Assembly: GCA_938003985.1 (NCBI GenBank)
Contig: CALKWZ010000073.1
Coordinates: 6,295-70,294 of the forward strand
DNA: 64,000 bases
Direction of reading: 5' to 3'
Source of the DNA: an uncultured Verrucomicrobiota bacterium
GTDB taxonomy: Bacteria; Verrucomicrobiota; Kiritimatiellia; CAIQIC01; Lenti-01
Shown here: positions 1 through 40,030 of the stretch, piece after piece
Layout: each line of letters opens with the position of its first letter
Position numbering within the stretch: the stretch's first letter is position 1
Position numbers and translations under genes: made by a program
Notes under the pieces: generated by a model
What the model was told of the DNA's origin: nothing
Databases searched by the model: none
The model's input: the letters and a program-made list of their open reading frames with translations, nothing else

Positions 1-271
1 AGCCGATGAAGTCGCCCGTCGCGACCGCCCCGCCGGCCATGATGGCGCCGCCCTTGCCGATCGGCCGCGGCTCCACCAGAACGCGCAGCTGCGGATGGCG
101 CGCCTGCAGGTCGCGCACGACGTCGGCCGTGCGGTCGGTCGAGCCGTTGACGGCCACGACGATCTCGAAGTCGTTCCCGTAGCGCTCCGCGAAGTACGGC
201 AGGTAGGCGCCGAGCATCTTGCCGATGCGCGCCTCCTCGTTGTAGGCGGGCACGACGATCGAGAGCTTCAT
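1..271 (-). CDS. Glycosyltransferase family 2 (polyprenol-phosphate sugar synthase-like), partial; C-terminus lies beyond the window start
   Basis: Reverse-strand translation from the ATG at 271..269 gives MKLSIVVPAYNEEARIGKMLGAYLPYFAERYGNDFEIVVAVNGSTDRT..., a classic GT2/DPM1-like N-terminus. The start overlaps the upstream stop as ATGA. Confidence 0.7.
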   Translation of the reverse strand, partial: MKLSIVVPAYNEEARIGKMLGAYLPYFAERYGNDFEIVVAVNGSTDRTADVVRDLQARHPQLRVLVEPRPIGKGGAIMAGGAVATGDFIG

Positions 272-2001: not shown

Positions 2002-2088
2002 ATGGCCGCCGATTGTTGCCCGAAGCCCCCGCCCGCCGCAACCCCAAAATGGTTGCCGGACAGCGGGCTCCGCGCTATCGTGAAGCCC

Positions 2089-4400: not shown

Positions 4401-4787
4401 ATGAAAAGCAACTTAATGATAGCACTCGGCGTAGTCGTTGTATTATCGCTTATGGGAGCAACGGTATTTATTGGTCTGCAATCCATGAGCGCTGCACATG
4501 CGGACATCCCCCCGCCGACAGTTAAGACCATTTCCGATTTTCGCTCCTGGCGCCCTACTTTTACCACTGCGCATCTCATTACTTTCGGCTGGTCTAGCAA
4601 CTACTACATTGACAATGACAATGCGCGATACAGCTCACGCGGGCCGCGCACATATGTTTTTAGTACATCGGGAAAATATCTTGAGACGTCGGACCTTACG
4701 GCCGATATGCGCAGCTTTGCATTTGCCGCCAGCAAAGGCGTAAACATTACTAGGGTTAATATTGACGATATACCAATACCGGAATGA
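4401..4787 (+). CDS. Hypothetical small secreted protein (low-GC islet, ORF-A)
   Basis: 128 aa with signal peptide MKSNLMIALGVVVVLSLMGATVFIGLQSMSAAHA and SD AAGGA upstream. Local GC is about 45% against about 70% background. No recognisable family. Confidence 0.55.
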   Translation: MKSNLMIALGVVVVLSLMGATVFIGLQSMSAAHADIPPPTVKTISDFRSWRPTFTTAHLITFGWSSNYYIDNDNARYSSRGPRTYVFSTSGKYLETSDLTADMRSFAFAASKGVNITRVNIDDIPIPE

Positions 4788-4798
4788 ATAATGCGCAG

Positions 4799-4862
4799 AA
4801 CAAGCGGGTCCAGGGTACCCGCCACAAGGTGTCGGATCCCCTGACCCGTGACGTTCGACGAA
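4799..4862 (+). repeat. 64-bp direct repeat, copy 1 (about 94% identical to 5491-5554)
   Basis: aacaagcgggtccagggtacccgccacaaggtgtcggatcccctgacccgtgacgttcgacgaa, located at the ORF-A/ORF-B junction. Imperfect internal dyad (cgggtccagggtaccc / ggatcccctgacccg). Confidence 0.85.
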
Positions 4863-4866
4863 TAAA

Positions 4867-5553
4867 ATGATTATGCGCACAATGGCACATCACCGATACG
4901 CGGCCATCATAGCTGGTGCATGCAACGCTATTATCGCCACTTCCGCCATGTCCGACGACATTCCTTGGATTACGCTTGAGAACATCAGCCTGAATCCAAC
5001 CAGCTTTTATGTGTCCATCAATGTAACCAATACCTGGTCACCATATTATTTCGCCCTGGAGGCATACGAAGGAGAACCTGTGGGGTCCACCGGCGGGGTT
5101 GAGCGAGCCATCGTATCCGATTGGGTGCAAGGAACGGGCTCGGCCTTGGTCTTGTATGACACCTCTGCCCCCTTGTCTCAATCAGGGCGTACATACAATG
5201 TCGCGGTCACTCCGGATATCGGAGGATTCTACATCCTTGGTCCAAACGAAATCTTTGCCCCTTATCCCTTCTTCAGATCGCCCGACATTTCTTCGATCAT
5301 CGTAACGCCAACAAATGCGGGCCAAGTCTTGGCCATCACATATGGCGAGGGCTTGTATACCAATACGGTCTATGTCTTGAGTGACGAAGCCTCGGGGTTC
5401 ATTCGAGTCAAGGGAACCAACAATATCCCGACAAATGCGGTCATCGAGCGCAGCACGGATCCCATTAGATGGGCCACAAAAAAAATGTCGAACAAGCGGG
5501 TCCAGGGTACCCTCCACAAGGTGTCGGGTCCCCTGACCCGTGACGTGCGATGA
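4867..5553 (+). CDS. Hypothetical secreted protein (low-GC islet, ORF-B); C-terminal 20 aa encoded by repeat copy 2
   Basis: 228 aa with signal-like N-terminus MIMRTMAHHRYAAIIAGACNAIIATSAMS and a beta-rich body. GC about 48%. Tail ...NKRVQGTLHKVSGPLTRDVR. The stop overlaps the next start as ATGA. Confidence 0.55.
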   Translation: MIMRTMAHHRYAAIIAGACNAIIATSAMSDDIPWITLENISLNPTSFYVSINVTNTWSPYYFALEAYEGEPVGSTGGVERAIVSDWVQGTGSALVLYDTSAPLSQSGRTYNVAVTPDIGGFYILGPNEIFAPYPFFRSPDISSIIVTPTNAGQVLAITYGEGLYTNTVYVLSDEASGFIRVKGTNNIPTNAVIERSTDPIRWATKKMSNKRVQGTLHKVSGPLTRDVR

Positions 5554-5554
5554 A
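5491..5554 (+). repeat. 64-bp direct repeat, copy 2
   Basis: aacaagcgggtccagggtaccctccacaaggtgtcgggtcccctgacccgtgacgtgcgatgaa has 4 mismatches to copy 1 and spans the ORF-B end and the ORF-C start. Confidence 0.85.
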
Positions 5555-5972
5555 GAACGACCGGAAACTGCTGCGAAAGGTTGGCGCGCTGGCCATCCTG
5601 CTGGGCGTTTATCCGGCGTTTGTTCTCGGCTACTCGTGGAGTTGCGTGCTGCGGTCGGATTTGCGCGGCGGCCGGCATGGCCCGCTCGATGCCTATCGCC
5701 ATGCTCTCGCCAGCGCGGTGGTGGCGTACACGTTGAACGAGTCGGCGGTTGACCTCATCACTGTCCTGTTTGAATCGAAGGGCAAGGACTCCAATCGCAT
5801 GGACGGCCACAACAACCGCATCGGGGCCCGCCTCGGCGCCCACGCCGATTCATTCCGCGACCTTGAACCCGCCGTGCGGCAACATGTTGGGAACGGCGCC
5901 GTCGCTGCGGTCGAACCGGATCAAATCACCTGGTTGCCGGAGAACAAATGGCGCGATGGTTGGATTTGGTGA
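5550..5972 (+). CDS. Hypothetical membrane-anchored protein (ORF-C)
   Basis: 140 aa with N-terminal TM (VGALAILLGVYPAFVLGY). The ATG is embedded in repeat copy 2. GC is intermediate (about 62%). No recognisable family. Confidence 0.45.
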   Translation: MKNDRKLLRKVGALAILLGVYPAFVLGYSWSCVLRSDLRGGRHGPLDAYRHALASAVVAYTLNESAVDLITVLFESKGKDSNRMDGHNNRIGARLGAHADSFRDLEPAVRQHVGNGAVAAVEPDQITWLPENKWRDGWIW

Positions 5973-6005
5973 CCGGTCCATGAAAATGCCATTCCCATAA
6001 TCGCC

Positions 6006-7692: not shown

Positions 7693-10600
7693 TCAGGGCG
7701 CGCGCTGGACGCCGATGCCGTAGAAGTAGGTGCCGAGTTCGGCGGGGGCGGCGTTGGTGTAGCCGTTGGTCGGGGCGGTGGCGCCGATGTTGCCGACGTG
7801 CTGGGTGAAGGGCCCGGCGACGTTGGTCGCGCGCCAGATCGAATAGACGCGGCCGGTCACGCTGGGCCAGCGGAAAACCAGGTTCGCCGTCGCGGTCTGG
7901 TTGGTGGCGTAGGGCGCCAGCGCCAGCACGGACGAATTGGTTTTCGGATTCGTGCCGGCGATGAATTCGTCGTAGTTGCTCCGGCCGTCGCCATCGTCGT
8001 CGCCCGCGGGCACGCCGTTGGTCGCGCCGCTGAAATAGGTGCTTTCGTACACGTCCGGCATGCCGTCGCCGTCGCTGTCGGCGTCCGGATCGGTCTGCAC
8101 GCCCGTCACGATCACGTCGTCGAGCGCGATGTTGCTCGTCACCTTGTTCCAGGTGAACCGCAGCTGCGTCGCGGATTCGGACAGATCGAAGGCGTAGGTC
8201 GTACCGACGTTCGACGGGTTGGTGACCACGCCCACCGTCGCCCAGTTCCCGCCGACGTACTGCGCCACCTCGAAGGTGCCCGTCCCCGCCGTCGTGACCG
8301 CCCGCATCCAGAACGAGACGTTCGTCGCGCCGAAGAACGTCGGACTGGCGATGGCGTCGCCGTCGCTGTCGAATTTGACCGACGGCGCCGCCCGGCCGTA
8401 GTAGGTGGCGGGATAGTTCGTGGTGACGCCGCTGAACGTCCAGCCCGCGGGCACGGCGGGCGTGACGTCGAAGGGCTCGTCGATCAGCGTGACGGAATTC
8501 GTGTCCGGCTCGGCCACGTAGGTCGCGGCGAAGGAGTTGGTCGTGCCGTTGGTCGTGGCCGTCGCGACGTCGGCCGGCGCGATCCAGCCCGTCGCCGCGC
8601 CGAACGACACCGTGTGCGCGCCGGCGGTCAGGCCGGTGGCGGCGGCGCCGCTGGCGCGCCACGCGCCGCCGTCCACGCGCCATTGCGCGCCGGCGGCGAC
8701 GGCCTCGGCGGGCTGCAGCGTGACGGACAGGGCGCCGGTCGTGGGCGGCGCCGCCCCCGCCTGCCCCTTGAGCTGGATCTCGTCCAGGTAGTAGAAATCG
8801 TTGGTGTTGTTGGCGCTCGCCGCGTCGAAGAAGACCACGCGCGCCATGATCTGCGTGCGGACGTCGGCGATGGCCAGCACGTACGGGGTGCCCTGCGGCT
8901 GCCGGTTGGTGTCGACCAGCGTCCCGTACTCCAGCTGCAGGTTGCTCAGGCCGTCCGCGATCTGCGTGCCGATGGCCGACGGCGACCACGTCGCGCCGCC
9001 GTCGTAGCTGACGGACACGTGCAGGTCGTCGCCGCTGTCCGGTCCGTTGGCCGCGAACGGGATCGTCAGCGTCACGTTCGTATAGCCGCTGATGTCCACG
9101 TTGCCCAGGACCACCGCCGGATTGACCGCCCCGTTCGTGGACCCGCGCAGGCGCACCGCGCTTGCGCCGGACAGCACCTTGTCCGCGTTCGTCGCCGCGG
9201 CCGCGCCGAAATCTTCGTTGGTCGCCAGCCCGCTGCCGTTCAGGGGCACGTAGCTCCAGCTCCAGGGATGCACGTCCGCGCCGTCGAAACCCTGCGACGC
9301 GATGCAATCCGCGCCGGCGGGCTGCAGGACGTAGGTCCGCGTCACGGTGCCCGTCGCGCCGGAGACGACCGTCACGTTGGTCGCGGCGGGCGTAGCGTAG
9401 CCCGCAACGGGGCCGAAGGTCACGGTATAGCCACCGGCGGCCAGATTGGTCGTGGCGCCCGCGGCGATCCAGCTCGCGCCGCCGTCGAGGCTCCACTGCG
9501 CGCTCGCCGGCGTCAGGTTCACCGTCAGCGCCCCGGGCAGGTCGGCGTAGGTCTTCGTGAAGGACGCCGCCTCGCCCGCGGACAACGCGTAGTTGGTCGC
9601 CGCCGGCGCGGCATAGCCGCTCACCGCCAGGAAGCTGATCGTGTGCGTCTTGACGGTCAGATCCTGGACGGTGGCCCCGCTCTCGTTCCAGTTGGTGCCG
9701 CCGTCCACGCTCCACGCGGCCCCGGCGGCCACGGCGCCGGCAGGAGCCAGCGCGACCGTGATCGAGCCGGGCAGCGCCGTGTAGCTGTAGGACCGGACCA
9801 CGTTGCTGTTGGCGTAGACGGTCGTGTAGCCCGTATCCGGCACCACGTAATTCGAGACGGTCTTGAAGGTGAAATACTGGCGGCCGGCGAGCAGATCATA
9901 GGCCGTGGCGCCGCTGTCGTACCAGGTGTTGCCGCCATCCACGCTCCACTGCGCGCCCGCGGACACGGCCGCCGCCGGACTCAGGTTCACCGTCAGGTCG
10001 CCCACCAGCGCGACGTAGGCGCCCGTGATGGAAACCGCGGCGCCGGCGATGGTCACGTTGGACGCGGCGGGCGTCGTATGGCTGTCGACGTCCTGGAACG
10101 TCACCGCGTAGGTGCCGTTGGTCAGGTTGGAGAGCGTGGTGCCGCTCGTGCGCCAGACGGCGCCGCCGTCCACGCTCCAGCGGCCGTCGGCCACGGCCGT
10201 GGCCGGCGTCAGCGTCACGGTCAGCGAGCCGGAGGCCGAGGCATAGACGGAGGTGAAGACGTTGGTCGCGCCCGCGGTCACCACGACGGACGTCGCGGCC
10301 GGCGTGAGATACCCGTCCACGGCGCCGAAGGAAACCTGGTAGGTGCCCGCATTGAGGCCCGTGCGCACGCTGCCGCTGACGTTCGTGGTGCCGGCGACGA
10401 TCCACCGCCCCGCGTTCGTCGCGGCCGCCGGCGAGAGCACGACGCGGATGGCGCCGGGCACGGCCGAATCGCCGAGGAACTGCATGGCCTTGGTCATCAC
10501 GGTCGCGCGGGTTTCCGCGTTGGTGATGGTTTCGAACGGGAAGCCCATCACGACGGTGCGGTAGGTGGCGTTGCTGTACTGGACGATCGCGCCGCTGGTG

Positions 10601-13600
10601 CCCGCGGCGCTCGCGCCGTACACCGCGGCGGTGACGCCGCCGCTGCCGACGCGCAGCACGTCGGGATAGTTCGCCGCGTAGACCTGCGGCAGCAGGTTCG
10701 TGTAGTTGAAGGCGATGGAGACGCCGTTGAGGAAGCCGCCGGCCGTGCCCGTGACCTGGCCGGTGGCGCCGCTGTCGGCCGAATAGACCGCGCGCAGCAC
10801 GTTGGTGAAGAAATTCACGTCCGCGGCCGAGGACACCCCCGCCCGGCCCAAATCCCAGCCGATTTCCGCGCCGGAAACGAACAGCCGGCCGCCGGCGTTC
10901 AGGTAGGCCGTCGCGGCGGTCTGTTCGGCGGAGCCGAAGGTCTCGTCCACCGTGGATTCCTCGCCCAGGATCCAGACGACCTTGGCGTAGTTCGTCAGCA
11001 GCGCCGACGAGACGAGCGCGGCGCCGACGTAGTCGAAGGTCTGCCCCGCCGCCGCCAGCGCGAGGCCGTGTTCCTTGACGTAGTCGAAGTGGTTGATCAT
11101 CCGCGGCCGCACCAGCGTCACGTTGCCGTTGAGGCCGTTGGCGAAGTAGCGCGTCGGCGCCAGGCCCGCGTCGTTGCGCGTGAAGCCGTCCACGACGAGC
11201 ACGCCCGCCTTGGCGCCGCCGGAAGTCACGCGCACGCCGGCCACGGCGGAATCGAACGACTCGCCGCCGGCGTTCGTCGCGCAGACCTTGAAGAAGATCG
11301 TCGCGCCCGCGTTCAGGTTGGTGACCACCTTGTTCGTGGCGCTCGCGCCGGAGACCGGGATGGGATTGCCGAAACCCTGGCCGTCCGTGGAGGTATAGAG
11401 GACGAAGCCCTGCGGCAAGCCGCCGCTGGCGGCGTCGCGCGCGGGCATGGCCCACGACACCGTGACCTGGCCGCTGCCGGAATTGACCGCCTTGAGGTCC
11501 GTCGGCCGATCGGGCGCGTTGGTGTTGACGATGCCGCTGGCGTAGTAGCCGGCCAGGTGCTTGATCAGGCCGCGCGCGGTCGCGCGCGCCAGCCATTCGC
11601 GGCCGGCGGGCAGCTTCAGCACCGCGCAGTCGTTGGAGTTGTCGTGGAACGCCACTTCGTTGATCGTGGTGTCCATCTTGAGGAACACGCTGGAATTGTA
11701 GATTTCGCCGTAGGTGCTGCCGTAGAGATAGCCGGTGCGCGTGCTCCAGCTGGGGATCACGCTGTTCGTGCCGGCGCGCAGGTCGACGTTGCACTGGCGG
11801 GCCAGCGCGGCGGCGAGGTTGGTCTGCGCGGCGTAAAGGGACGGATAGCCGGACTGGATGCGCGTGTCGTAGAGGCCGATGGCGCCGCGGCCGGTGCCGT
11901 CGCCGGCGTTGGAGTGGAAGCCCACGTAGACCCGCTGCCAGCGCGCCGCGTCGTTGGAGCGGCACATGTAGGCCGCCATGCGCGCGGGCTGGCCGATGTT
12001 GTCGCTGCGGTCGTCGTAGCCGGCCAGGTCGTAGAGCGTGGCGTCCATCCCCTGCCCCATGGACTTGATGGTCCAGAAGCGGCCGGATTCTAGTTCCGAT
12101 TCGAAGCCCGAGATCCCGGCCGTGCCGCGCGCGACGTTGCCGCGCCCGTTGCCGAAGCGGATGGCGTCGGCGAAGACGGACGAGCCCTCGGCGCCGCCGG
12201 GCGCGTAGTTGCCGATGTTCACGCAGCCGTTGGTGCCGGCTTCGAAGTGGTAGTTGCCCAGCCAGACCCAGCCGCAGCCGACGTCGCGGTGGTTCACGCG
12301 CACGTCCGTCACGCCGCCGGAATGGTACACGCGGTACAGCTGGTTGGCGCGGTCGGAACCGTGGCGGACCCAGGTGTAGACCGGATATTCGCCGGCTTCG
12401 GGCAGATTCGGCCGGTAGGAGGCCCACGACGTCGAGCCGTTGGTGCTGATCGCGGCGTAGCGGTACGGCACGGCGTCGCCGGCGTTGCCGTAATAGATGG
12501 ATTGCGTCGAGTTGTACCACGTGCCGCCGAAGGTGACCTTGCCGCGGGCCGTCTGGTTGGTGTCCATGTTGTCGAGCACCACTTCGTTCGTCTGGTAGCC
12601 CAGCGGCCGGATCGGGACGACCGTGCCGCCGGCCTTCCAAACCGCTTCCGCGAACCGGTTCATCTGGTCGACGTTGCCCATGTCCTCGTTCACGGCGAAC
12701 AGCAGCGGGCGTTCGGGGATCCACGCGGTCAAGGCCTCGTTCGCGCCGAAGCCGTGGCCGGCGCTGGTGTAGACCACCACGCCGGACAACGGACCGGTCG
12801 GCTGGGCCGCCGCGACCTGCGGCAGGCCGGTTTCGTCCGGCGTGCCCAGCGGTTCTTCGCCGCCGCCGGTTTCGCCTTCGCCCCCGCCCGTCTCGCCGCC
12901 GCCTTCTTCCGCCGCGGCGCCCATCGTGCCTTTGGTCAGGATCGTGCCGTTGTAGCCGACGGCCACGAACTGGTCTTCGGCATAGCTGATGCCGCGCAGG
13001 AGATTCGTCGTGCCGGAGGTTTCCGCCTCCCAGGTCAGGCCGTCGGTGGAACTCCAGATCGACCCGTTGGCGCCCGCCGCCTTGAACAGGCCCGAGCAGT
13101 AGGCCGAGCGGTAGAAATAGACGCTGTTGGTGGTGAAGCTCCAGGAAAGCCCGTCGGAGGAACGCAGGATCCGCTGGTTGCCCACGGACACGTAGTAGCC
13201 GTTGCCGTACGTCACGTCGGAAAGATACTGGGAGGTGCCGGACGTGCGCGGCGTCCAGCTCAGGCCGTTGCTCGACGTCAGGATCAGGCCGCTCTGGCCG
13301 ACGATGACGAAGAGCGGGGATTCCGCGGACGCTTCGTTCGTGTCGCCCGCGTTCACGAAGTCCATGCCGTAGCCCACGCCCTGCAGCGACGCGTTCGTGC
13401 CCGACGCCACCGCCGACCAGGTCGCGCCGTCGGTCGAGCGCACGATCGCGCCGCCGTCGCCGCAGGCCACGTACGTGCCGTTGCCGTAGGCCACGCCGCG
13501 GAACAGCGCGTTCGTCGGCGAGGTCCGCGACGTCCAGTCGAGGCCGTTGGTGGAGGTGACGATGGCGCCGCTTTCGCCGACGACCACCCACAGCGGGCCG

Positions 13601-15288
13601 TCGCCGTTCACGTTCATCAGCAGGCCGCTCTTGCCGCTGCTGCGGGCGGTCCAGTCGATGCCGTTGGTGGAGGTGTAGAGCGCCCCGCCGGCCCCGCTGG
13701 CCACGTGCAGGCCGGCGCGACTGCCCACGCCGTAGAAATTCGCCGTATGGGCGGACACGCGGTTCGTCCAGGGCGCGGTCGCCGAGGAACCGCCGGTCTC
13801 GCCGGGATCCGGATCGGGCGGCGGCGCCGCGCCCGCGCCGAACTTCTCGTCGATCAGCTGCCAGAGTTCCGTCTTGCCGGTGCCTTGCGTGAGGTTCCAG
13901 ATGCCGATGCCGCCCATCCCCTTCGTATTGGACAGGTCGTACTTCATCCCGAGGCTGGCGACGTCGTCGTAGAAGCACTGGTAGGCGGTGCTGTTGGAGA
14001 CGTAGACGTAGTACGGCACGCTGCCGTTGTTGTCCCATTTCTTGCCGTACTTGGCGGCTTCCGATTCGCAGGCGCCGTAGGTCAGCGCGGCGGAATAGGC
14101 GCTGCCGAGGCTGGCGGCGCCGAGGTTCGTGCTGGCGGCGGCCCAGCGGCGCCCGTAGTACGGCACGCCCAGCATCAGTTTGTTCGTCGCGATGCCCTTC
14201 CCCAAATAGTAGTTCATGGAGTAGTTCACCGAGCACCACGAGCTGGCGCCGATCCACTGCGCGCTGCTGGTCAGCGGCGCCACCGGGCCCGGCGTGCCGC
14301 TGCCGGAATAGTAGTAGTCGTAGCCCATGACGATCGCGTAATCCATGCCGAAGGCGGCGTAGTTGGACACCGCGAAGTTCGCGTACCAATCCACCGACGG
14401 CAGCGCGATCGAGATCTCGTAGTTCGGATTCGCCGCGTGGAACCGCGTCGTCAGGTTGCTCATGAAGGTCGTCAGCGCCGCCGTCGCGCCCGTCCACGAG
14501 CCCACGCCTTCGAAATCGATGTTCACCCCGTCGCCGTCGCCGGGCAGCGTGCGGTTGGTCATCGCGATCAGCAGCTGGGTGATCAGGTTGCTGCACGCGA
14601 CGGAATTCGTCAGGAACCGGTGCGTGGCGGCGTCGCCGAACAGCGTCGCCGTCAGCACGACCTTCACGCCGTTGCTGTGCGCCCACTCCACCACGGGCGA
14701 CGTGCCCCACGAGCCCATGCTGTCGGCGTTGCCGTTGGTGGAATTCACCGCATAGGAGAAGTAGGCGATGGTCGTCAGGTTCGTGTACTGGTAGTTCTGG
14801 ATATCCGTCATCGTCGCCCAGGACGGATGCCAGCCCAGCACGCGCTTGCCCGCGGCGATGGCCTTGGGCGCCGCCAGCGGCTGGACGGTCGGCTTGGGCT
14901 GCCGGGACGGCTTGGCGGTCGGATCGAAATCGGTCGGCGTTTCGCCTTGGTGTTCCTCGAAGGCGATCTGGAGCGGGCTCTTCCAGTCGGCCAAATATTC
15001 CGGCACGACGAAGGCGGCCTGCTCGGCCTCCTCTTCCGTGGCGCCCATTTCAAGCGCGGTCGCTTTCGCCAGGCTGCGCGCGCGCGCCACGGCGGGCGAC
15101 GTTTCGGCGACGTCCGGAATTTCCGGCAGAGCCACGTCCACGCCCGTTTCGTCCCAGGCATCTTGCCCCGCCACCTGGTTTTCGGTACCGGCCGGGACCG
15201 GTTCGTCCAGACCTTCCGCCCGCCCGCCGGCCAGCGTTAGACAAAAGAACAGCCCGCCCAATACGCCCACGTGAATGCGCCGATTCAT
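7693..15288 (-). CDS. Giant secreted multidomain protein (2531 aa) with GH18 chitinase-like domain
   Basis: Start MNRRIHVGVLGGLFFCLTLAGGRAEG (signal peptide) at 15288..15286. Domains in order: GH18-like (DGVNIDFEG); BNR/Ycf48-like beta-propeller (STNGLDWTSRTS, SSDGLSWSF, STDGLTWEAETSG); Amidase_3-like (VVVYTSAGHGFGANEA ... GFHSNAG ... AFHDNS); FN3; ThuA/GATase1-like; about eight Ig-like repeats (G..TV.LSPA.A..GA.WSVDGG..W); choice-of-anchor-like module; TSP3 Ca-binding repeats (DPDADSDGDGMPD, GDDDGDGRSNYDE); conserved C-terminal tail. The upstream in-frame extension to 15471 was rejected. Confidence 0.85.
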   Translation of the reverse strand: MNRRIHVGVLGGLFFCLTLAGGRAEGLDEPVPAGTENQVAGQDAWDETGVDVALPEIPDVAETSPAVARARSLAKATALEMGATEEEAEQAAFVVPEYLADWKSPLQIAFEEHQGETPTDFDPTAKPSRQPKPTVQPLAAPKAIAAGKRVLGWHPSWATMTDIQNYQYTNLTTIAYFSYAVNSTNGNADSMGSWGTSPVVEWAHSNGVKVVLTATLFGDAATHRFLTNSVACSNLITQLLIAMTNRTLPGDGDGVNIDFEGVGSWTGATAALTTFMSNLTTRFHAANPNYEISIALPSVDWYANFAVSNYAAFGMDYAIVMGYDYYYSGSGTPGPVAPLTSSAQWIGASSWCSVNYSMNYYLGKGIATNKLMLGVPYYGRRWAAASTNLGAASLGSAYSAALTYGACESEAAKYGKKWDNNGSVPYYVYVSNSTAYQCFYDDVASLGMKYDLSNTKGMGGIGIWNLTQGTGKTELWQLIDEKFGAGAAPPPDPDPGETGGSSATAPWTNRVSAHTANFYGVGSRAGLHVASGAGGALYTSTNGIDWTARSSGKSGLLMNVNGDGPLWVVVGESGAIVTSTNGLDWTSRTSPTNALFRGVAYGNGTYVACGDGGAIVRSTDGATWSAVASGTNASLQGVGYGMDFVNAGDTNEASAESPLFVIVGQSGLILTSSNGLSWTPRTSGTSQYLSDVTYGNGYYVSVGNQRILRSSDGLSWSFTTNSVYFYRSAYCSGLFKAAGANGSIWSSTDGLTWEAETSGTTNLLRGISYAEDQFVAVGYNGTILTKGTMGAAAEEGGGETGGGEGETGGGEEPLGTPDETGLPQVAAAQPTGPLSGVVVYTSAGHGFGANEALTAWIPERPLLFAVNEDMGNVDQMNRFAEAVWKAGGTVVPIRPLGYQTNEVVLDNMDTNQTARGKVTFGGTWYNSTQSIYYGNAGDAVPYRYAAISTNGSTSWASYRPNLPEAGEYPVYTWVRHGSDRANQLYRVYHSGGVTDVRVNHRDVGCGWVWLGNYHFEAGTNGCVNIGNYAPGGAEGSSVFADAIRFGNGRGNVARGTAGISGFESELESGRFWTIKSMGQGMDATLYDLAGYDDRSDNIGQPARMAAYMCRSNDAARWQRVYVGFHSNAGDGTGRGAIGLYDTRIQSGYPSLYAAQTNLAAALARQCNVDLRAGTNSVIPSWSTRTGYLYGSTYGEIYNSSVFLKMDTTINEVAFHDNSNDCAVLKLPAGREWLARATARGLIKHLAGYYASGIVNTNAPDRPTDLKAVNSGSGQVTVSWAMPARDAASGGLPQGFVLYTSTDGQGFGNPIPVSGASATNKVVTNLNAGATIFFKVCATNAGGESFDSAVAGVRVTSGGAKAGVLVVDGFTRNDAGLAPTRYFANGLNGNVTLVRPRMINHFDYVKEHGLALAAAGQTFDYVGAALVSSALLTNYAKVVWILGEESTVDETFGSAEQTAATAYLNAGGRLFVSGAEIGWDLGRAGVSSAADVNFFTNVLRAVYSADSGATGQVTGTAGGFLNGVSIAFNYTNLLPQVYAANYPDVLRVGSGGVTAAVYGASAAGTSGAIVQYSNATYRTVVMGFPFETITNAETRATVMTKAMQFLGDSAVPGAIRVVLSPAAATNAGRWIVAGTTNVSGSVRTGLNAGTYQVSFGAVDGYLTPAATSVVVTAGATNVFTSVYASASGSLTVTLTPATAVADGRWSVDGGAVWRTSGTTLSNLTNGTYAVTFQDVDSHTTPAASNVTIAGAAVSITGAYVALVGDLTVNLSPAAAVSAGAQWSVDGGNTWYDSGATAYDLLAGRQYFTFKTVSNYVVPDTGYTTVYANSNVVRSYSYTALPGSITVALAPAGAVAAGAAWSVDGGTNWNESGATVQDLTVKTHTISFLAVSGYAAPAATNYALSAGEAASFTKTYADLPGALTVNLTPASAQWSLDGGASWIAAGATTNLAAGGYTVTFGPVAGYATPAATNVTVVSGATGTVTRTYVLQPAGADCIASQGFDGADVHPWSWSYVPLNGSGLATNEDFGAAAATNADKVLSGASAVRLRGSTNGAVNPAVVLGNVDISGYTNVTLTIPFAANGPDSGDDLHVSVSYDGGATWSPSAIGTQIADGLSNLQLEYGTLVDTNRQPQGTPYVLAIADVRTQIMARVVFFDAASANNTNDFYYLDEIQLKGQAGAAPPTTGALSVTLQPAEAVAAGAQWRVDGGAWRASGAAATGLTAGAHTVSFGAATGWIAPADVATATTNGTTNSFAATYVAEPDTNSVTLIDEPFDVTPAVPAGWTFSGVTTNYPATYYGRAAPSVKFDSDGDAIASPTFFGATNVSFWMRAVTTAGTGTFEVAQYVGGNWATVGVVTNPSNVGTTYAFDLSESATQLRFTWNKVTSNIALDDVIVTGVQTDPDADSDGDGMPDVYESTYFSGATNGVPAGDDDGDGRSNYDEFIAGTNPKTNSSVLALAPYATNQTATANLVFRWPSVTGRVYSIWRATNVAGPFTQHVGNIGATAPTNGYTNAAPAELGTYFYGIGVQRAP

Positions 15289-15506
15289 AGTAACGAGAAT
15301 CGTCACAAAGCCCGGTTGCGGCGTCAAGCGCGGGGTGTCCTGAAATCGACATTTGGTTTTTGTTAAATCTGGGCCAGAAGCCCATTTTATGTTTGCCAAC
15401 CGGCGGCGTGCAGAGCGAGGATTTCCCGCGTGATGGCGGCACGCCAGGTCGGGATCGGGTTTCCCGGCCATTCACGGCGAGCCGGCATTGCCCTAACGGA
15501 GGTCGC
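15289..15506. promoter_or_regulatory. Divergent intergenic control region between the two giant genes
   Basis: 218-bp AT-richer spacer (tttggtttttgttaaatctgggcc...). GGAGG SD lies 6 nt before the ATG at 15507. A weak sigma54-like GGCACG-N4-GTCG element was not pursued. Confidence 0.3.
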
Positions 15507-18500
15507 ATGAGTGCTCGGTGGGTTCGCTCGTTGCTGGTGCTGTTCGTTCTCTTCTCCTTCGGTCTTTCTTCGGCCTTCGCGGCCAAGAGCAAAGCCAAAC
15601 CCAAGGCCCAGGAAGCTCCGCCTCCGGCCGCCGTCGAAACGGAAACCGCCGGCCTGCCTCCGGCCGAATTGACCGTGGGCTTCCAGGTCCGCGATTCCGA
15701 AACGGAAGGCATCGGCGACCTGCTCGTGCCGGTTTGGAATCCCGGCGGCACCGGTCTGCTGTTCCTCAATCCCCGCACGGCCATCGTCGACCACGACGAA
15801 CAGGAAGGCAACCTCGGCCTCGGCTATCGCCAACTCCTGCCCAAGCTGAACACGATCCTCGGCGCCAACCTTTACTACGACTACCGCGACACCGGCTCGT
15901 TCAACTACGACCAGTGGGGCTTCGGCCTGGAACTGCTCAGCCCCTGGGTCGACGCGCGCGCGAACTACTACGATCCCGACGACAAGCGCAACGTGGTCGC
16001 CAGCGAAACCCAGACCACCGTCAGCCAGACCGTCCGCACGTCGTCCGCATGGCGCGATCCGTACGCCGAAGACCACTACGTCCTCCAGGACTTCGTCACG
16101 ACCCGCACCCTGACCACGTCCACCAGCACCAAGACCTTCGAGCAATACGAGCAGGCCCTCGGCGGCTACGACTGGGAAATCGGCCTGCGCCTGCCCATCC
16201 GGTCCGACCACGTCGAAGCCCGGCTGTTCGGCGGCTACTACGACTTCGACCGCGATTTCGGCGACGATGCCCGCGGCTGGAAAACCCGCGCCGAACTGCG
16301 CGTGCGCAACAGCCTCTTCCTGGATGCCGGTCTGTACGAGAACGAAGACCTGACCGGCAGCGACTGGTTCGCCGGCGCGCGCTGGTCCACCCCGCTGGAT
16401 CTCGGCCAACTGGCCCGCGGCCGCAATCCGTTCGGATCCGCCAAGGCGCGCCTGCGCGGCGAACCCCGCGCCGCTTCCGCCCGCTTGACCGAAATGGTCC
16501 TGCGCGATCCGCAGGTCCGCCTCGAGCAGTCCAAGTTCCTCGAAAACAAAGCCCTCCAGCAGGACGGCTCCAGCTCCAGCCAAAGTTCCTCCGGCCAAAC
16601 CTTCGTGCTGCTGCCCGACGTGCAGTTCGTGCACGGCGATGCCGGCGTGTCCGGCGACGGCACCGCGGAGCGGCCCTTCACGACCATCCAGCAGGGCGCC
16701 AACGCCGTCTACGGCTCGCGCAACGTCTACGTCTACAACGCGTCCGGCCCCTACAACGAGAACGTCGTCCTGCTGCCGGACACCACCCTCTGGGGCAGCG
16801 GCAGCCTGATCCTCGGCTACGGCGGCAAGACGTTCGGCAGCGGCATCCACCCCATCGTCGACGGCCTCAGCCGCGGCCCCGCCATCACCATGGCCGACCG
16901 CACCACCGTCCGCGGCATGGGCGTCCGCAACACGGAGCAAGGCGGTCCCGACCAAATGGTCATCCTCCCCGGCCTCCCCACCTACAACGTCCGCCGCGTC
17001 GGCATCTACGGCGCCGACGCCACCGACCTGACCATCCTCGACAGCATCGCCATGGGCAACGAGATCGGCGTCCTGCTGGGCCGGGTCGGCGATTTCCGCC
17101 TGACCTACCGCAATAACCAGGCCTCGCAAAACGACGTCGACGGCTTGCAGATCTGGGCCGATGGCGCCGGCGGCGGCCTCTTCGACGCGGACGTTTCCGG
17201 CAGTTCCTTCGATCAAAACGGCAATTCCGGCCTGTTGCTTTCCGCCAACGGCTATGGCGGTTCCTTCGTCCGCATCCGCGATTCGCAGGCCTTGGACAAC
17301 CCCGGCGCCGGCTTTCAATCGATCCAGCAGAACTCGTCGTTCGCCATGGCCCTGCTGTCCGGCCTGAACGCCCACGGCAACACCATCGGCATCCAGAGCG
17401 TGCAGGACAACGTCGATTTCGCCCTCGCCAACATTTCCGACAGCGCCGCGAACGACAATCTGGCGTTCGGCATCCAGAACGTCCAGAATGCCGGCTTCGT
17501 TTCCGTCGGCGTCATCGGCATGCCGAACGGGCTGGACACGCTGGCGTCGAGCCTGGCTTCGCTGATCGGGTTCCCGCTCCCGCCCGAAGTCGGCATGTTC
17601 TTGGCCCCCTCCGGCCCCGTCACGGCCAACGGCAACGGCGTCTTCGGCGTGCAGTCCATCATCACGGCCGATTCCGGCCTGGCGTTGGGAGCGCTCTTCG
17701 ACATCACCGCCAACAACAACGGCGTCTTCGGCATCCAGGCGATCAACCAGAGCCCCAACGGCGTCGCCGTCGGCCTGGCCGGTTCGTCCCAGAACCTGCG
17801 GGAAATCCTGCGGCTCGGCGACAGCGTCGCCGGACTCTTCGGCCTCGATCTGCCGCTGACCATCCCCGGCGGCGGTCACATGGAAGCGAACGGCAACGGC
17901 GCCGGCGGCTTCATGATGCAGACCATCGGCGACAGCGCCGCCATCAATGCCGTGGTCGGCCTGGAAACCCTCGGCAACGGCGGCTTCGGCACGATGCTGG
18001 GTACGTATTCCGACAGCCTCTCCATCGCCGCCCTGGCCCGCCTGTACACGGCGGAAAACGTCGGCGCCGGCCTCCTGTTCGACGTCTACGGCCTCGACGT
18101 CGGGGCCATCGGCCTCCTGGCCGACGTCTTCGCCGACGTCAACGGCGACAGCGGCATCACCGCCTCCGTCGACAGCCCCAACGGCTTCGCCGTCCTCGCG
18201 TCCCTCTCCACCGACGTCCTGCGCCCCCTGGGCGATTCCCTGGGCGAGATGTTCCTCGGCGCGCCGCTCGACGTCCCCGGCGCCCCCTTCGGTCCCGTGG
18301 TGGCGTCCGGCAACCTCGGCAACGGCTTCACCGCCAACGTCACCGGCAACGACTTCGCGGCCGCCGTCCTGCTCGACACCTGGGCCGACGGCAACTCCAA
18401 CAACGGGTTCGATCTCACCGTCGCCTCCGCCAACGGTCCCTCGATCGCCGCCATCCTCTCCAGCGACGTCGTGCTGAACCTGGTCAACGACATGGGCGTG

Positions 18501-19733
18501 CTGCCCGAGCCCATCGTCTTCGATCCGCTCGGCTACGTCTCGGCTTCCGGCAACGGCGCCAACGGCATCGTGCTCAACCAGAACGGCAACGACGGCGCCT
18601 ACGCCATTCTCGCCGGCATCCGCGCCGACAACAACGTCCTCGGCGACGGCATCCAGGCCTCGCTGACCTCCGCGGCCGGCGACGCCTACGCCATCCTGGT
18701 CGACGCCGACGCGGCCGGCAACGGCGACGACGGCATCGATCTGAGCCTCGCCGCCGACGGCTACGCCATCAGCGCTCTCCTGTTCTCCGACGTGGACGAC
18801 AACGTCGACGACGGCCTCCACCTCGTCCAGAACAGCGCCAACGCCGATGCGTTTTCCTTGTTGGCCAACACCGAGGCTTGGAGCAACGGCGGCGTCGGCT
18901 TCTGGGCCGACGTGACGGCGCCCAACGGCGACGCGGCCATTTGCGCCACCGAAGTCGAAGCCAACTACAACGACGGCCGCGGCGCCCGCTTCACCCTCGC
19001 GGCCGGCGACGAAGCCGCCCTGCTGGTCGGCACCAACGCCCTGCCGCTGTTCGACATGGAATTCAGCGGGTTCCTCGGCGCCAGCATCCTCGATACCTTC
19101 TGGGACGTGATTCCGCAGGGCTCGGCCGAGTTCAACAACAACGGCGGCGGCGGCCTGTACGCCGACCTGACCAGCACCGGCGGCAACGTCTGGCTGGACG
19201 TCGACGGCGCCGAAGCCTCGATCAACGCGAACAACGGGTTCAACGTCACGCTGAACGCCTTGGCCGGCGAAATCGCCAGCTTCTTCGGCCAAACCACGGC
19301 CGACAACAACGGCAACAGCGGCGTCAACCTGACGCTCAACGGCGCCGGCCCCATGGCCTCGGCCTGGTTCGACGCGGTCGGCACCAGCGGCAACGGCGGC
19401 AACGGCATCACCGTGGACGACACCTACAACGGCACGGTGCACGTCGGCGGCCAGTACCTGGTTTCGCAGAACAACGTCGGCAACGGCGTGCGGCTGGTCC
19501 TCTCGGGCCTGGGCGGCGTGCCGGTGATCGACTTCGGCGGCGGCCTCCTGGGCAGCGTCGGCCAGAGCTCGATCTTCGGCAACGGCAACCGCGACTTCCG
19601 CTACAACAACGGCGGCGGTGCCACGGCCATGGCCGAAAACAACTGGTGGGGCACGGTCGCCCCCGTCGCCGGCCAGTTCGCGGGCAGCGTCGACCGCACG
19701 CCTTGGCTGCTGACCGATCCGAACGCGCCGTAA
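15507..19733 (+). CDS. Inverse-autotransporter-like outer-membrane protein with parallel beta-helix passenger (1408 aa)
   Basis: Signal peptide MSARWVRSLLVLFVLFSFGLSSAFA. The N-terminal about 350 aa resembles the intimin/invasin beta-barrel (LGANLYYDYRDTGSFNYDQWGFGLELLSPWVDARANYYDP; ARLFGGYYDFDRDF). The remainder is Gly/Asn-rich PbH1-type beta-helix repeats (ANGNGVFGVQSI, ANNNGVFGIQAI, NNNGNSGVNL). Confidence 0.7.
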   Translation: MSARWVRSLLVLFVLFSFGLSSAFAAKSKAKPKAQEAPPPAAVETETAGLPPAELTVGFQVRDSETEGIGDLLVPVWNPGGTGLLFLNPRTAIVDHDEQEGNLGLGYRQLLPKLNTILGANLYYDYRDTGSFNYDQWGFGLELLSPWVDARANYYDPDDKRNVVASETQTTVSQTVRTSSAWRDPYAEDHYVLQDFVTTRTLTTSTSTKTFEQYEQALGGYDWEIGLRLPIRSDHVEARLFGGYYDFDRDFGDDARGWKTRAELRVRNSLFLDAGLYENEDLTGSDWFAGARWSTPLDLGQLARGRNPFGSAKARLRGEPRAASARLTEMVLRDPQVRLEQSKFLENKALQQDGSSSSQSSSGQTFVLLPDVQFVHGDAGVSGDGTAERPFTTIQQGANAVYGSRNVYVYNASGPYNENVVLLPDTTLWGSGSLILGYGGKTFGSGIHPIVDGLSRGPAITMADRTTVRGMGVRNTEQGGPDQMVILPGLPTYNVRRVGIYGADATDLTILDSIAMGNEIGVLLGRVGDFRLTYRNNQASQNDVDGLQIWADGAGGGLFDADVSGSSFDQNGNSGLLLSANGYGGSFVRIRDSQALDNPGAGFQSIQQNSSFAMALLSGLNAHGNTIGIQSVQDNVDFALANISDSAANDNLAFGIQNVQNAGFVSVGVIGMPNGLDTLASSLASLIGFPLPPEVGMFLAPSGPVTANGNGVFGVQSIITADSGLALGALFDITANNNGVFGIQAINQSPNGVAVGLAGSSQNLREILRLGDSVAGLFGLDLPLTIPGGGHMEANGNGAGGFMMQTIGDSAAINAVVGLETLGNGGFGTMLGTYSDSLSIAALARLYTAENVGAGLLFDVYGLDVGAIGLLADVFADVNGDSGITASVDSPNGFAVLASLSTDVLRPLGDSLGEMFLGAPLDVPGAPFGPVVASGNLGNGFTANVTGNDFAAAVLLDTWADGNSNNGFDLTVASANGPSIAAILSSDVVLNLVNDMGVLPEPIVFDPLGYVSASGNGANGIVLNQNGNDGAYAILAGIRADNNVLGDGIQASLTSAAGDAYAILVDADAAGNGDDGIDLSLAADGYAISALLFSDVDDNVDDGLHLVQNSANADAFSLLANTEAWSNGGVGFWADVTAPNGDAAICATEVEANYNDGRGARFTLAAGDEAALLVGTNALPLFDMEFSGFLGASILDTFWDVIPQGSAEFNNNGGGGLYADLTSTGGNVWLDVDGAEASINANNGFNVTLNALAGEIASFFGQTTADNNGNSGVNLTLNGAGPMASAWFDAVGTSGNGGNGITVDDTYNGTVHVGGQYLVSQNNVGNGVRLVLSGLGGVPVIDFGGGLLGSVGQSSIFGNGNRDFRYNNGGGATAMAENNWWGTVAPVAGQFAGSVDRTPWLLTDPNAP

Positions 19734-19761: not shown

Positions 19762-19794
19762 GGGGCCGGGCAATCGCCCGGCCCCTTTCTTGTT
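19762..19794 (+). terminator. Rho-independent terminator of the beta-helix gene
   Basis: GGGGCCGGGC-aatc-GCCCGGCCCC (10-bp perfect stem) followed by TTTCTTGTT. Confidence 0.6.
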
Positions 19795-19812
19795 CCGCTG
19801 CGCGCCGAAATC

Positions 19813-40011: not shown

Positions 40012-40030
40012 CCGCTTGCTCCGGCCGCCG

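What the first reader, a model, noticed from the sequence alone, without database searches (positions are those of the whole stretch)
15507..19733. Inverse-autotransporter-like N-terminal barrel fused to a long parallel beta-helix passenger instead of Big/Ig repeats
The first 350 aa carry hallmark intimin/invasin beta-domain strings (LGANLYYDYRDTGSFNYDQWGFGLELLSPWVDARANYYDP). The remaining about 1000 aa are Gly/Asn-rich PbH1-like beta-helix repeats. Known inverse autotransporters typically export Ig-like/Big passengers, so a beta-helix passenger would be an atypical architecture. Divergent pairing with the giant hydrolase gene suggests a functional surface module.
Basis: inference. Interest (0 to 1): 0.55.

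Follow-up and report, generated by a model that had tools for sequence, protein, structure and literature searches.

The report
Inverse autotransporter with beta-helix passenger
This gene from an uncultured Kiritimatiellia bacterium encodes an outer-membrane protein with an intimin/invasin-type barrel at its front end and a roughly 1000-residue beta-helix rod behind it; the design is real and unstudied, but it was already noted in 2016 and is common in this bacterial group.

Summary
Window 15507-19733 (+) is one intact, monocistronic gene of 1408 aa. It encodes a Sec signal peptide and a short disordered spacer with no LysM. Next comes an IAT_beta barrel (Pfam 40.2 bits against a cutoff of 22.3). 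The AlphaFold2 model has pLDDT 87.7, and its best Foldseek matches in the PDB are the intimin and invasin beta-domains (TM 0.70 and 0.69). After a highly conserved linker, about 1035 aa form a right-handed parallel beta-helix (pLDDT 91.9, pTM 0.83). No Big/Ig, type Va or TPS domain is present.

The architecture is not new. Heinz et al. 2016 reported invasin_beta proteins with a pectin-lyase-fold C-terminal domain. The barrel has 2608 cluster representatives in metagenomes. In 42 sampled distant relatives, the only non-barrel families were beta-helix ones.

Conserved passenger residues are almost all Gly, Asn and Ala, with no catalytic constellation. A structural or adhesive surface rod is therefore more likely than an enzyme.

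Two further points emerged. Relatives share near-identical barrels and C-terminal tips but have swapped central shafts, which indicates recombination. The divergent GH18 neighbour is kept within one clade only, so a functional module is unproven.

Verdict: a new member of a known, uncharacterised kind, of modest interest.

The parts
15286..15506 (.). Divergent intergenic region between the GH18 giant gene and the IAT gene. It contains the Shine-Dalgarno GGAGG at 15498-15502 and short conserved AT-rich boxes (GTTAAA..ATG; CATTTT..TTG), most clearly conserved among the closer relatives.
   Evidence: Sequence. Alignment of the same region from 8 related loci. No sigma-70 consensus promoter was found.
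15507..15581 (+). Sec signal peptide, aa 1-25 (MSARWVRSLLVLFVLFSFGLSSAFA|A). There is no lipobox Cys.
   Evidence: Translation. Helix at aa 3-20 in the model. The cleavage site is inferred from the AFA|A motif.
15582..15662 (+). Short Lys/Pro/Ala-rich, predicted disordered periplasmic spacer, aa 26-52. No LysM or other periplasmic domain.
   Evidence: pLDDT below 50. No Pfam hit.
15663..16397 (+). Inverse-autotransporter beta-barrel, aa 53-297. It reads as 12 strands if 161-182 and 191-217 are extensions of beta7 and beta8.
   Evidence: Pfam IAT_beta 40.2 bits. AF2 pLDDT about 81-97 by 10-residue block across the barrel. Foldseek top hits are intimin 5g26 and invasin 4e1t, TM 0.70/0.69. Profile against invasin E=7.2e-5. 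Identity among orthologues is 60-95%.
15987..16157 (+). Long Thr/Ser-rich beta-hairpin, aa 161-217. It includes an insertion of about 45 aa relative to invasin and the Pfam model, and is read as an extension of extracellular loop L4 between beta7 and beta8.
   Evidence: DSSP strands 161-182 and 191-217. 165 residues are matched to 116 Pfam profile positions. Spacing of the ANGY and D.R.N.YLP-type motifs in invasin compared with this protein. The extracellular placement is inferred from strand parity.
16398..16541 (+). Post-barrel linker, aa 298-345. It has three short helices and then an extended segment. The motifs GRNPF (305-309) and RLTEMV.RDP (326-335) are at least 90% conserved. This is the presumed pore-traversing segment.
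   Evidence: Model secondary structure. Conservation across 72 sequences. Threading through the lumen is inferred, because model coordinates could not be inspected.
16542..16622 (+). Ser/Gln-rich variable spacer, aa 346-372, between the linker and the passenger.
   Evidence: Composition. Low conservation, 18-77%.
16623..16856 (+). Conserved N-terminal cap and first coils of the beta-helix, aa 373-450 (FVHGDAG..GDGTAERPFTTIQ..YVYNASGPYNENVVL). It stays conserved together with the barrel when the shaft diverges.
   Evidence: Block identities. Conserved columns. Weak Pfam similarity to DUF1565/Beta_helix starts in relatives.
16857..19406 (+). Variable beta-helix shaft, aa 451-1300. Coils are about 27 aa long with an A..N...G ladder, interrupted by helical insertions at about aa 676-699, 761-777, 902-917, 986-996 and 1178-1201.
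   Evidence: AF2 pLDDT 91.9, pTM 0.83. Foldseek hits are all right-handed beta-helices. Conserved residues are G/N/A. Mosaic divergence.
19407..19733 (+). Conserved C-terminal tip or cap of the beta-helix, aa 1301-1408 (..ENNWWG..TPWLLTDPNAP), plus the stop codon.
   Evidence: 78-100% identity in relatives whose shaft is 30-55% identical. Weak NCBIfam LIC10774 surface-protein match at aa 1318-1387.
19762..19795 (+). Intrinsic-terminator-like hairpin (10 G-C pairs, GGGGCCGGGC-AATC-GCCCGGCCCC, then a T-rich tail). It lies 29 nt after the stop, between the IAT gene and the convergent methyltransferase gene.
7693..15285 (-). Divergent neighbour: a 2530-aa secreted GH18 + Golvesin_C + fn3 multidomain protein. 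It is context only and is not shown to belong to the same system.
   Evidence: Pfam. Signal-peptide-like N-terminus from the start at 15285. Synteny.

Best explanation
The gene encodes a type Ve (inverse) autotransporter of an uncultured Kiritimatiellia (PVC group) bacterium.

**Proposed mechanism.**
1. The protein crosses the inner membrane through Sec.
2. [quoted passage not shown] 3. The conserved linker occupies the barrel pore.
4. The C-terminal ~1035 aa are threaded out from the barrel-proximal end (N to C). They fold coil by coil into a right-handed parallel beta-helix that stays anchored to the cell.

**Product.** The rod has roughly 30 coils and is on the order of 15 nm long.

**Role.** The rod is most likely a non-enzymatic surface structure: an adhesin, a glycan- or surface-binding fibre, or a coat protein. 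Its exposed shaft diversifies by recombination, while the export module (barrel, linker and first coils) and the distal tip are kept.

**Shown here:** gene integrity, barrel family and fold, beta-helix fold, conservation pattern, and mosaicism.

**Inferred:** membrane topology, the N-to-C export mechanism, BAM dependence, surface exposure, and the adhesive or structural role.
For: **Gene.** One ORF with a Shine-Dalgarno sequence, a signal peptide and its own terminator.

**Barrel.**
- IAT_beta is above the Pfam gathering score.
- The family profile hits the invasin beta-domain at E=7.2e-5.
- The AF2 model of aa 1-700 has pLDDT 87.7, with beta strands spanning aa 53-297.
- The best PDB fold matches are intimin 5g26 and invasin 4e1t, with TM 0.70/0.69 over the whole target.

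**Linker.** The motifs GRNPF and RLTEMV.RDP are at least 90% conserved in 72 sequences.

**Passenger.**
- The model has pLDDT 91.9 and pTM 0.83 and is a continuous beta-helix.
- All fold matches are beta-helix proteins, including tailspikes, AlgE4, Ag43, pertactin and PfbA.
- Of 87 passenger columns (aa 373 onward) conserved at 90% or more, 40 are Gly, 24 Asn and 5 Ala. Only 3 are Asp and 1 is Glu. No conserved catalytic set is seen.

**Family.**
- 125 full-length relatives occur in Kiritimatiellia, Opitutae, Lentisphaerae and Verrucomicrobia MAGs. Of the 120 listed, 45 are recorded with both PF11924 and PF13229.
- The barrel has 2608 representatives.
- 42 sampled distant members carry only beta-helix families besides IAT_beta.

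**Signs of surface exposure.**
- The barrel is 60-95% identical among orthologues, the shaft 25-60%.
- P0029 has a barrel 100% identical to that of P0003, but a passenger at most 81% identical to any relative.
- The P0004 segment 951-1300 is closest to P0018 and P0014, while the rest of P0004 is closest to P0002.

**Literature.** Type Ve topology and secretion are reviewed in PMC6555100. Invasin_beta plus pectin-lyase-fold proteins are reported in PMC4943183.
Against: - No experiment exists for any member of this subfamily.
- Pfam matches only the first ~60% of the IAT_beta profile (positions 61-176 of 279). The second half of the barrel and the linker rest on the AF2 model and Foldseek.
- Model coordinates could not be inspected. 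The strand count of 12 and the passage of the linker through the pore are my reading of the DSSP string, not measurements.
- Foldseek matches of the first beta-helix domain include enzymes (GH87 glucanase, AlgE4 epimerase), so an enzymatic role is not excluded.
- Lack of conserved acidic residues across paralogues does not rule out lineage-specific active sites.
Confidence: 0.78

Rival explanations
1. The passenger is a cell-surface carbohydrate-active enzyme (polysaccharide lyase, hydrolase or epimerase of the pectin-lyase fold). It is displayed by the IAT barrel and works alongside the neighbouring GH18 enzyme in glycan degradation.
For: The first beta-helix domain gives Foldseek matches to GH87 alpha-1,3-glucanase and the AlgE4 epimerase. 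The full passenger also matches PL6 lyases and tailspike depolymerases. Glycoside hydrolase genes sit next to the gene: GH18 here and in L001-L004, L007, L013-L015, and an alpha-amylase in L005 and L012.
Against: These fold matches are weak (TM normalised to query 0.09-0.26, 6-16% identity) and are generic for any beta-helix. There is no Pfam or NCBIfam hit to a CAZyme or lyase family. Conserved passenger residues are almost only G/N/A. The shaft is swapped and diverges quickly, which is unusual for a catalytic domain.
Confidence: 0.13
2. The IAT and the divergent GH18 giant form one functional surface module. The beta-helix rod might anchor, present or help export the GH18 protein, by analogy with ZirT-type inverse autotransporters that have co-encoded substrates.
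For: The divergent pairing is kept in L001-L004, L007, L009, L014 and L015. It is also kept in L013, where the other flanking genes differ. The shared ~220-bp intergenic region has conserved boxes. Heinz et al. 2016 describe IATs with co-encoded substrates.
Against: Most of the conserved pairing lies within one collinear block (GlyK-GH18-IAT-MT-MgtE), which can reflect shared ancestry alone. The pairing is absent in L010 (HMG-CoA reductase upstream) and in L005 and L012 (alpha-amylase upstream). In L008 the upstream giant gene has no GH18 domain. The ZirT-type proteins have short C-terminal extensions, not 1000-aa passengers. The genes are divergent, not co-transcribed.
Confidence: 0.08
3. The N-terminal region is not an inverse-autotransporter barrel. 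It would instead be a generic porin-like barrel, or the protein would belong to a conventional (type Va) or two-partner (type Vb) family.
For: Pfam covers only part of the IAT_beta profile. Lower-ranked Foldseek hits include CdiB, FapF, EspP and porins.
Against: IAT_beta is the only barrel family detected and is above its cutoff. The two best fold matches are the intimin and invasin beta-domains, with E-values about 200-fold or more better than any other barrel. The family profile hits invasin by sequence. The barrel is N-terminal and there is no C-terminal autotransporter domain, TPS domain or POTRA.
Confidence: 0.02

Closest known systems
Intimin (EaeA) and invasin (InvA), the type Ve inverse autotransporters of E. 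coli and Yersinia
   Same: Both have a signal peptide and an N-terminal barrel of the Pfam IAT_beta family. The predicted fold superposes on the intimin and invasin barrels (TM 0.70/0.69). The passenger lies C-terminal to the barrel and a conserved linker follows the last strand.
   Different: There is no LysM periplasmic domain. The passenger is a ~1035-aa beta-helix rather than Big/Ig repeats with a lectin tip. An insertion of about 45 aa makes a long hairpin between beta7 and beta8. Sequence identity to invasin is low (15-16% in the Foldseek alignment). The host is an environmental, wastewater-associated PVC bacterium, not an enteric pathogen.
The 'invasin_beta + pectin lyase fold (IPR011050)' group noted by Heinz et al. 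2016 (PMC4943183)
   Same: The domain architecture is the same: an inverse-autotransporter barrel followed by a pectin-lyase-fold (right-handed beta-helix) C-terminal domain.
   Different: That paper reports the architecture only as a network cluster, without structure, taxonomy detail or function. I could not check whether its sequences are direct relatives of this Kiritimatiellia subfamily.
Classical type Va autotransporters with beta-helix passengers (pertactin, Ag43, Hbp; chlamydial Pmps within the PVC group)
   Same: A ~12-strand outer-membrane barrel is covalently linked to a long right-handed beta-helix displayed on the surface. Passenger length varies through the number of coils. Ag43 and pertactin appear among the fold matches.
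   Different: The domain order is inverted and the barrel family is unrelated (no PF03797). Export and folding would therefore run N to C from the barrel-proximal N-cap. In type Va, folding runs C to N from the autochaperone region.
PbH1/NosD/DUF1565-type beta-helix proteins and phage tailspikes
   Same: They share the coil period of about 27 aa with an Asn/Gly ladder, the typical N-terminal start (GDGT..PF.TIQ.A) and the C-terminal NNWWG motif. Relatives hit Pfam Beta_helix, NosD and DUF1565.
   Different: No recognisable catalytic or metal-binding signature is present, and the protein is fused to an outer-membrane export barrel.

Membership tests
Inverse autotransporter (type Ve secretion; Pfam IAT_beta PF11924) | Match to the IAT_beta family model above its curated threshold | tested here: met
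   40.2 bits against a cutoff of 22.3, E=3.8e-10, aa 66-230. Only profile positions 61-176 of 279 are covered. 37 of 42 distant relatives also match.
Inverse autotransporter (type Ve secretion; Pfam IAT_beta PF11924) | Inverted domain order: N-terminal signal peptide, then the barrel, then the passenger C-terminal to it | tested here: met
   Signal peptide aa 1-25, barrel aa 53-297, passenger aa 373-1408. The barrel is at an N-terminal position in nearly all of the 150 listed relatives.
Inverse autotransporter (type Ve secretion; Pfam IAT_beta PF11924) | 12-stranded beta-barrel with the intimin/invasin fold | tested here: met
   AF2 model pLDDT 87.7. Best PDB matches are the intimin 5g26 and invasin 4e1t beta-domains, TM 0.70/0.69 normalised to the target. 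The count of 12 strands is my parsing of the DSSP string, not a measurement on coordinates.
Inverse autotransporter (type Ve secretion; Pfam IAT_beta PF11924) | Linker after the last strand that runs through the barrel lumen from periplasm to surface | tested here: inconclusive
   A strongly conserved segment (aa 305-335) with short helices followed by an extended stretch follows the barrel.
Inverse autotransporter (type Ve secretion; Pfam IAT_beta PF11924) | Passenger exposed on the cell surface, exported N to C via a hairpin, and dependent on BAM | not testable with these tools
   Needs protease shaving, immunolabelling and BamA depletion. Fast, mosaic evolution of the shaft is only indirect support for exposure.
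Intimin/invasin sensu stricto | Passenger built of Big_1/Big_2 Ig-like domains with a C-type-lectin-like tip. LysM is present in intimin. | tested here: not met
   No Big, Intimin_C or LysM hit at E up to 1, and none in 42 relatives. The protein is therefore an IAT superfamily member, not an intimin or invasin.
Right-handed parallel beta-helix (pectin lyase fold; Pfam Beta_helix PF13229 / PbH1) | Match to a beta-helix family model above threshold | tested here: not met
   PF13229 scores 14.3 bits against a cutoff of 25.9 in this protein. It is met in relatives: PF13229 is precomputed for many homologues, with best E=6.2e-13 among the distant ones.
Right-handed parallel beta-helix (pectin lyase fold; Pfam Beta_helix PF13229 / PbH1) | Three-dimensional beta-helix fold | tested here: met
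   AF2 pLDDT 91.9, pTM 0.83, with periodic strands of ~27 aa. Every listed Foldseek PDB match I could identify is a beta-helix protein.
Classical autotransporter (type Va) / two-partner secretion (type Vb) | C-terminal Autotransporter beta-domain (PF03797), or an N-terminal TPS domain with a TpsB partner | tested here: not met
   No such Pfam hit at E up to 1. The C-terminus is a beta-helix cap. No Omp85/POTRA gene was seen among the neighbours scanned.

The most novel reading that the evidence does not exclude
This Kiritimatiellia/PVC subfamily may be a distinct, very large subclass of type Ve secretion with three properties.

1. A beta-helix is exported and folded in the opposite polarity to classical autotransporters, that is, N to C.
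2. Folding is nucleated by the conserved barrel-proximal N-cap (aa ~373-450), which would act as an autochaperone analogue.
3. The conserved export module (barrel, linker and N-cap) serves as a platform behind which shaft cassettes are exchanged by recombination. The selective pressure could come from phage or other antagonists.

A functional partnership with the adjacent giant glycoside hydrolase is also possible.
Probability: 0.25. Interest if true: 0.6.

Novelty: new member of a known kind. Interest (0 to 1): 0.35.

Why it matters
All experimentally studied inverse autotransporters carry Ig-like passengers. Current secretion models invoke sequential folding of those small domains as the driving force. 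A natural IAT with a 1000-aa beta-helix offers a direct comparison with classical autotransporters. It has the same passenger fold and a barrel of similar size, but the opposite direction of export. That comparison could test whether vectorial beta-helix folding works from the N-terminal end.

The family is also abundant in polysaccharide-degrading PVC bacteria from wastewater and digesters, whose surface biology is almost unknown. The recombining shaft suggests it is a target of strong selection. For this particular gene, however, the result is mainly a correct annotation rather than a discovery.

Tried and rejected
- **PDB sequence search with the single protein.** It found nothing at E up to 1. 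Only the family profile reached invasin.
- **Self-BLAST of the passenger.** It found no internal repeat at E=1e-3. The coil repeats are too degenerate, and the periodicity shows only in the family alignment.
- **First alignment attempt.** Aligning 91 sequences failed, so I repeated it with 41.
- **Word-indexed homologue search with the barrel alone.** It returned only 20 mostly short or fragmentary proteins and did not help with passenger types. The exhaustive HMMER search plus Pfam on 42 hits answered that question.
- **Literature searches.** Two timed out. Later searches found no paper on beta-helix IATs beyond Heinz 2016.
- **Paralogue in the window.** None was found.
- **Sigma-70 promoter scan of the intergenic region.** No consensus match.
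- **Rejected hypotheses.** Conventional autotransporter, TPS or porin (rival 3). Intimin or invasin proper (no Big or LysM). Pseudogene or gene fusion (orthologues of 1394-1470 aa with the same layout).

Full report
**1. The observation**

The finding's coordinates match a real gene exactly. An ATG at 15507 follows GGAGG at 15498-15502, and the frame runs to a stop at 19731-19733, giving 1408 aa. The window has about 67% G+C, so many long spurious ORFs overlap the gene. This frame is the one with database homologues. A ten-G-C-pair hairpin with a T-rich tail lies 29 nt after the stop, at 19762-19785. The next gene is convergent. The upstream gene is divergent, and the gene therefore looks monocistronic.

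The C-terminal ~1000 aa contain 15% Gly and 7-10% Asn, with a single Cys.

**2. The N-terminal barrel**

- **Sequence.** Pfam finds IAT_beta (PF11924) at E=3.8e-10 and 40.2 bits, above the gathering score of 22.3. The match covers aa 66-230 and profile positions 61-176 of 279. The single sequence finds nothing in the PDB. A profile of 41 family members hits the invasin beta-domain 4e1t at E=7.2e-5.
- **Model.** An AlphaFold2 model of aa 1-700, built on that alignment, has mean pLDDT 87.7. It shows a signal-peptide helix and a disordered Lys/Pro/Ala-rich stretch (aa 26-52, pLDDT below 50). Beta strands follow from aa 53 to 297.
- **Fold match.** Foldseek against the PDB ranks 5g26 first. I recognise this entry as the intimin beta-domain used in an in-meso crystallisation study; that identification is my own knowledge. 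Invasin 4e1t ranks second. Both have E about 4e-7 and TM-scores of 0.70 and 0.69 normalised to the target. The next barrel, CdiB, is more than 400-fold weaker in E-value.
- **Strand count.** DSSP lists 14 strand elements. Two of them (161-182 and 191-217) are double length. Strand 191-217 runs on into 219-228 with a single-residue break. I read 161-182 and 191-217 as an extension of beta7 and beta8, which gives 12 barrel strands.
- **Insertion.** Pfam matches 165 residues to 116 profile positions. The spacing between the ANGY-type and D.R.N.YLP-type motifs is 23 residues in invasin and 66 here. Both figures indicate an insertion of about 45 aa at that point. Strand parity places it in an extracellular loop; this placement is an inference.
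- **Periplasmic domain.** No LysM or other periplasmic domain exists.
- **Linker.** After the last strand come three short helices and an extended segment (aa 298-345). Its motifs GRNPF and RLTEMV.RDP are at least 90% conserved across 72 sequences. That is what one expects of a linker packed inside the pore. I could not inspect coordinates to confirm it.

**3. The passenger**

A second model (aa 400-1408) has pLDDT 91.9 and pTM 0.83. It is a continuous beta-helix with a coil period of about 27 aa. Helical excursions interrupt it at about aa 676-699, 761-777, 902-917, 986-996 and 1178-1201.

Every PDB match I could identify is a right-handed beta-helix. These include the phage Andhra tail protein, tailspikes, the AlgE4 and AlgG epimerases, GH87, PL6 lyases, Ag43, pertactin and PfbA. 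All are weak, with query-normalised TM up to 0.26. The fold is clear, but no specific relative has a solved structure.

Pfam Beta_helix is below threshold in this protein. It is recorded together with PF11924 for 45 of the 120 listed homologues. No Big/Ig, type Va or TPS domain is found.

About 30 coils at 4.8 Å per coil would give a rod of about 15 nm. The rise per coil is a general property of the fold, and the length is an inference.

**4. Relatives and how common the design is**

- **Full-length relatives.** There are 125 hits. One is identical (P0001), and orthologues of 1394-1470 aa range from 87% down to about 40% identity. Source names include Kiritimatiellia, Opitutae, Lentisphaerae and Verrucomicrobia MAGs. 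Several are already named 'inverse autotransporter beta domain-containing protein'.
- **Genome loci.** Matching loci come from Kiritimatiellia and 'Verrucomicrobia' MAGs. The closest contigs come from sewage metagenomes.
- **Barrel alone.** Aa 40-345 has 2608 cluster representatives at E up to 1e-3, and 284 at E up to 1e-30, among 1.84 billion proteins. The barrel is almost always at the N-terminus of proteins of 300-3000 aa.
- **Passengers of distant members.** Pfam on 42 more distant members gave IAT_beta in 37, Beta_helix in 10, NosD in 6 and DUF1565 in 3. No Ig-like family appeared. Their consensus keeps the same passenger start, Asn/Gly ladder and C-terminal WG motif.
[quoted passage not shown] Heinz et al. 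2016 explicitly reported a group of invasin_beta proteins with a C-terminal 'pectin lyase' domain and compared them with pertactin (PMC4943183). I found no later study of such proteins.

The architecture is therefore atypical only relative to the characterised proteins. As a sequence class it is known and abundant.

**5. Likely function**

Across 72 aligned sequences the barrel and linker keep many charged and aromatic residues. In the passenger, 87 columns are conserved at 90% or more. Of these, 40 are Gly, 24 Asn and 5 Ala, with only 3 Asp and 1 Glu. That is the pattern of a structural ladder, not of an active site.

Barrel identity among orthologues is 60-95%. Shaft identity is 25-60%.

Block-wise comparison shows mosaics. 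In P0027, P0028 and P0029 the barrel and the last 60-100 aa stay 78-100% identical to the query. Most of the shaft, by contrast, is 30-55% identical. In P0004 only aa 951-1300 drops, to 36-54%.

Segment-wise best hits are incongruent. The P0029 barrel is 100% identical to that of P0003, yet its passenger is at most 81% identical to any relative over aa 374-500 and about 60% over aa 501-950. P0004 is closest to P0002 (86-97%) up to aa 950. Its segment 951-1300 is closest to P0018 and P0014 (88% and 86%). This indicates recombinational exchange of shaft segments behind a conserved export module. The module consists of the barrel, the linker and the first coils to about aa 450. The tip is also conserved.

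Flanking genes are more conserved than the IAT in two loci: L003 (GH18 85%, IAT 63%) and L004 (GH18 72%, methyltransferase 73%, IAT 44%).

All of this fits an exposed, non-enzymatic surface rod under diversifying pressure. An enzymatic role is the main alternative and is not excluded.

**6. The GH18 neighbour**

The divergent gene (7693-15285, minus strand) encodes a 2530-aa secreted protein with GH18, Golvesin_C and fn3 domains.

- **Pairing kept.** The pairing recurs in L001-L004, L007, L009, L014 and L015, mostly as part of one collinear block, GlyK-GH18-IAT-methyltransferase-MgtE. It also survives in L013, where the other flanks differ and a second, 923-aa IAT paralogue follows.
- **Pairing absent.** It is absent in L010 and in L005 and L012, where an alpha-amylase gene lies upstream on the same strand. 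In L008 the upstream giant gene has no GH18 hit.

Adjacency is thus conserved within a clade but is not a family trait. A functional link remains a hypothesis.

**7. Verdict**

The gene is a genuine type Ve inverse autotransporter with a beta-helix passenger and no periplasmic domain.

It is a new member of a sequence class already noted in 2016 and now seen to be very large in PVC bacteria. No member has been studied experimentally.

The parts worth following up are the reversed polarity of beta-helix export, the conserved N-cap and tip, and the recombining shaft. Interest is 0.35.

Noticed in passing
window 7693-15285 (-): A giant 2530-aa secreted protein. It has a GH18 domain (aa 213-529), then a run of repeats with motifs like 'TSTNGLDWT' that look like BNR/Asp-box propeller blades (aa ~520-790; my reading, not tested). 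Golvesin_C (aa 973-1107) and fn3 follow. Next are repeated ~90-aa 'WSVDGG..W' modules (aa ~1610-2260) and a thrombospondin-type-3-like DADSDGDGMPD motif near the C-terminus. It is more conserved than the IAT gene in loci L003, L004 and L007.
   Followed up: partly
L013 14433-17204 (+), next to L013 10001-13912: A relative's locus carries two IAT + beta-helix genes in tandem (1303 aa and 923 aa). Other contigs also appear to hold two family members (P0006/P0022, P0088/P0108). Paralogue pairs could supply donor sequence for the shaft recombination.
   Followed up: partly
P0029 vs P0003, P0004 vs P0002/P0018 (relatives of window 15507-19733): Segment-wise best hits disagree. The barrels are identical or near-identical while the passengers differ strongly. 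One 350-aa shaft segment of P0004 is closest to an otherwise distant relative. This is evidence of recombination within the gene.
   Followed up: yes
window 15286-15506 and the same region of L001-L004, L007, L009, L013, L014: The divergent intergenic region keeps short AT-rich boxes (GTTAAA..ATG and CATTTT..TTG, about 150-190 nt upstream of the IAT start) and a CGTCAAGC box near the GH18 start; they are clearest among the closer relatives. No sigma-70 consensus promoter was detected. These may be promoter or regulator sites of a non-canonical type.
   Followed up: partly
window 19762-19795: A very strong GC hairpin (10 G-C pairs) with a T-rich tail lies between the convergent IAT and methyltransferase genes. 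It may be a bidirectional terminator.
   Followed up: no
window ~3900-6000: A low-G+C stretch (55% against about 67-70% elsewhere) holds small ORFs (4401-4787, 4867-5553 and 5550-5972, all plus strand) that were not checked against any family library. In relatives L014 and L015 the corresponding position, upstream of DUF1801-GlyK, differs (a transposase in L014). It may be an acquired island.
   Followed up: no
L008 164-6940 region: In this relative the gene upstream of the IAT is again very large. It has no GH18 or other Pfam hit, though an adjacent upstream stretch of the locus (about 2-2626, minus strand) resembles the C-terminal repeat modules of the window's GH18 giant. The 'head' of the neighbouring giant protein may be variable.
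   Followed up: partly
window 39938-40013 (+): The only tRNA gene in the window is tRNA-Arg (CCT).
   Followed up: no
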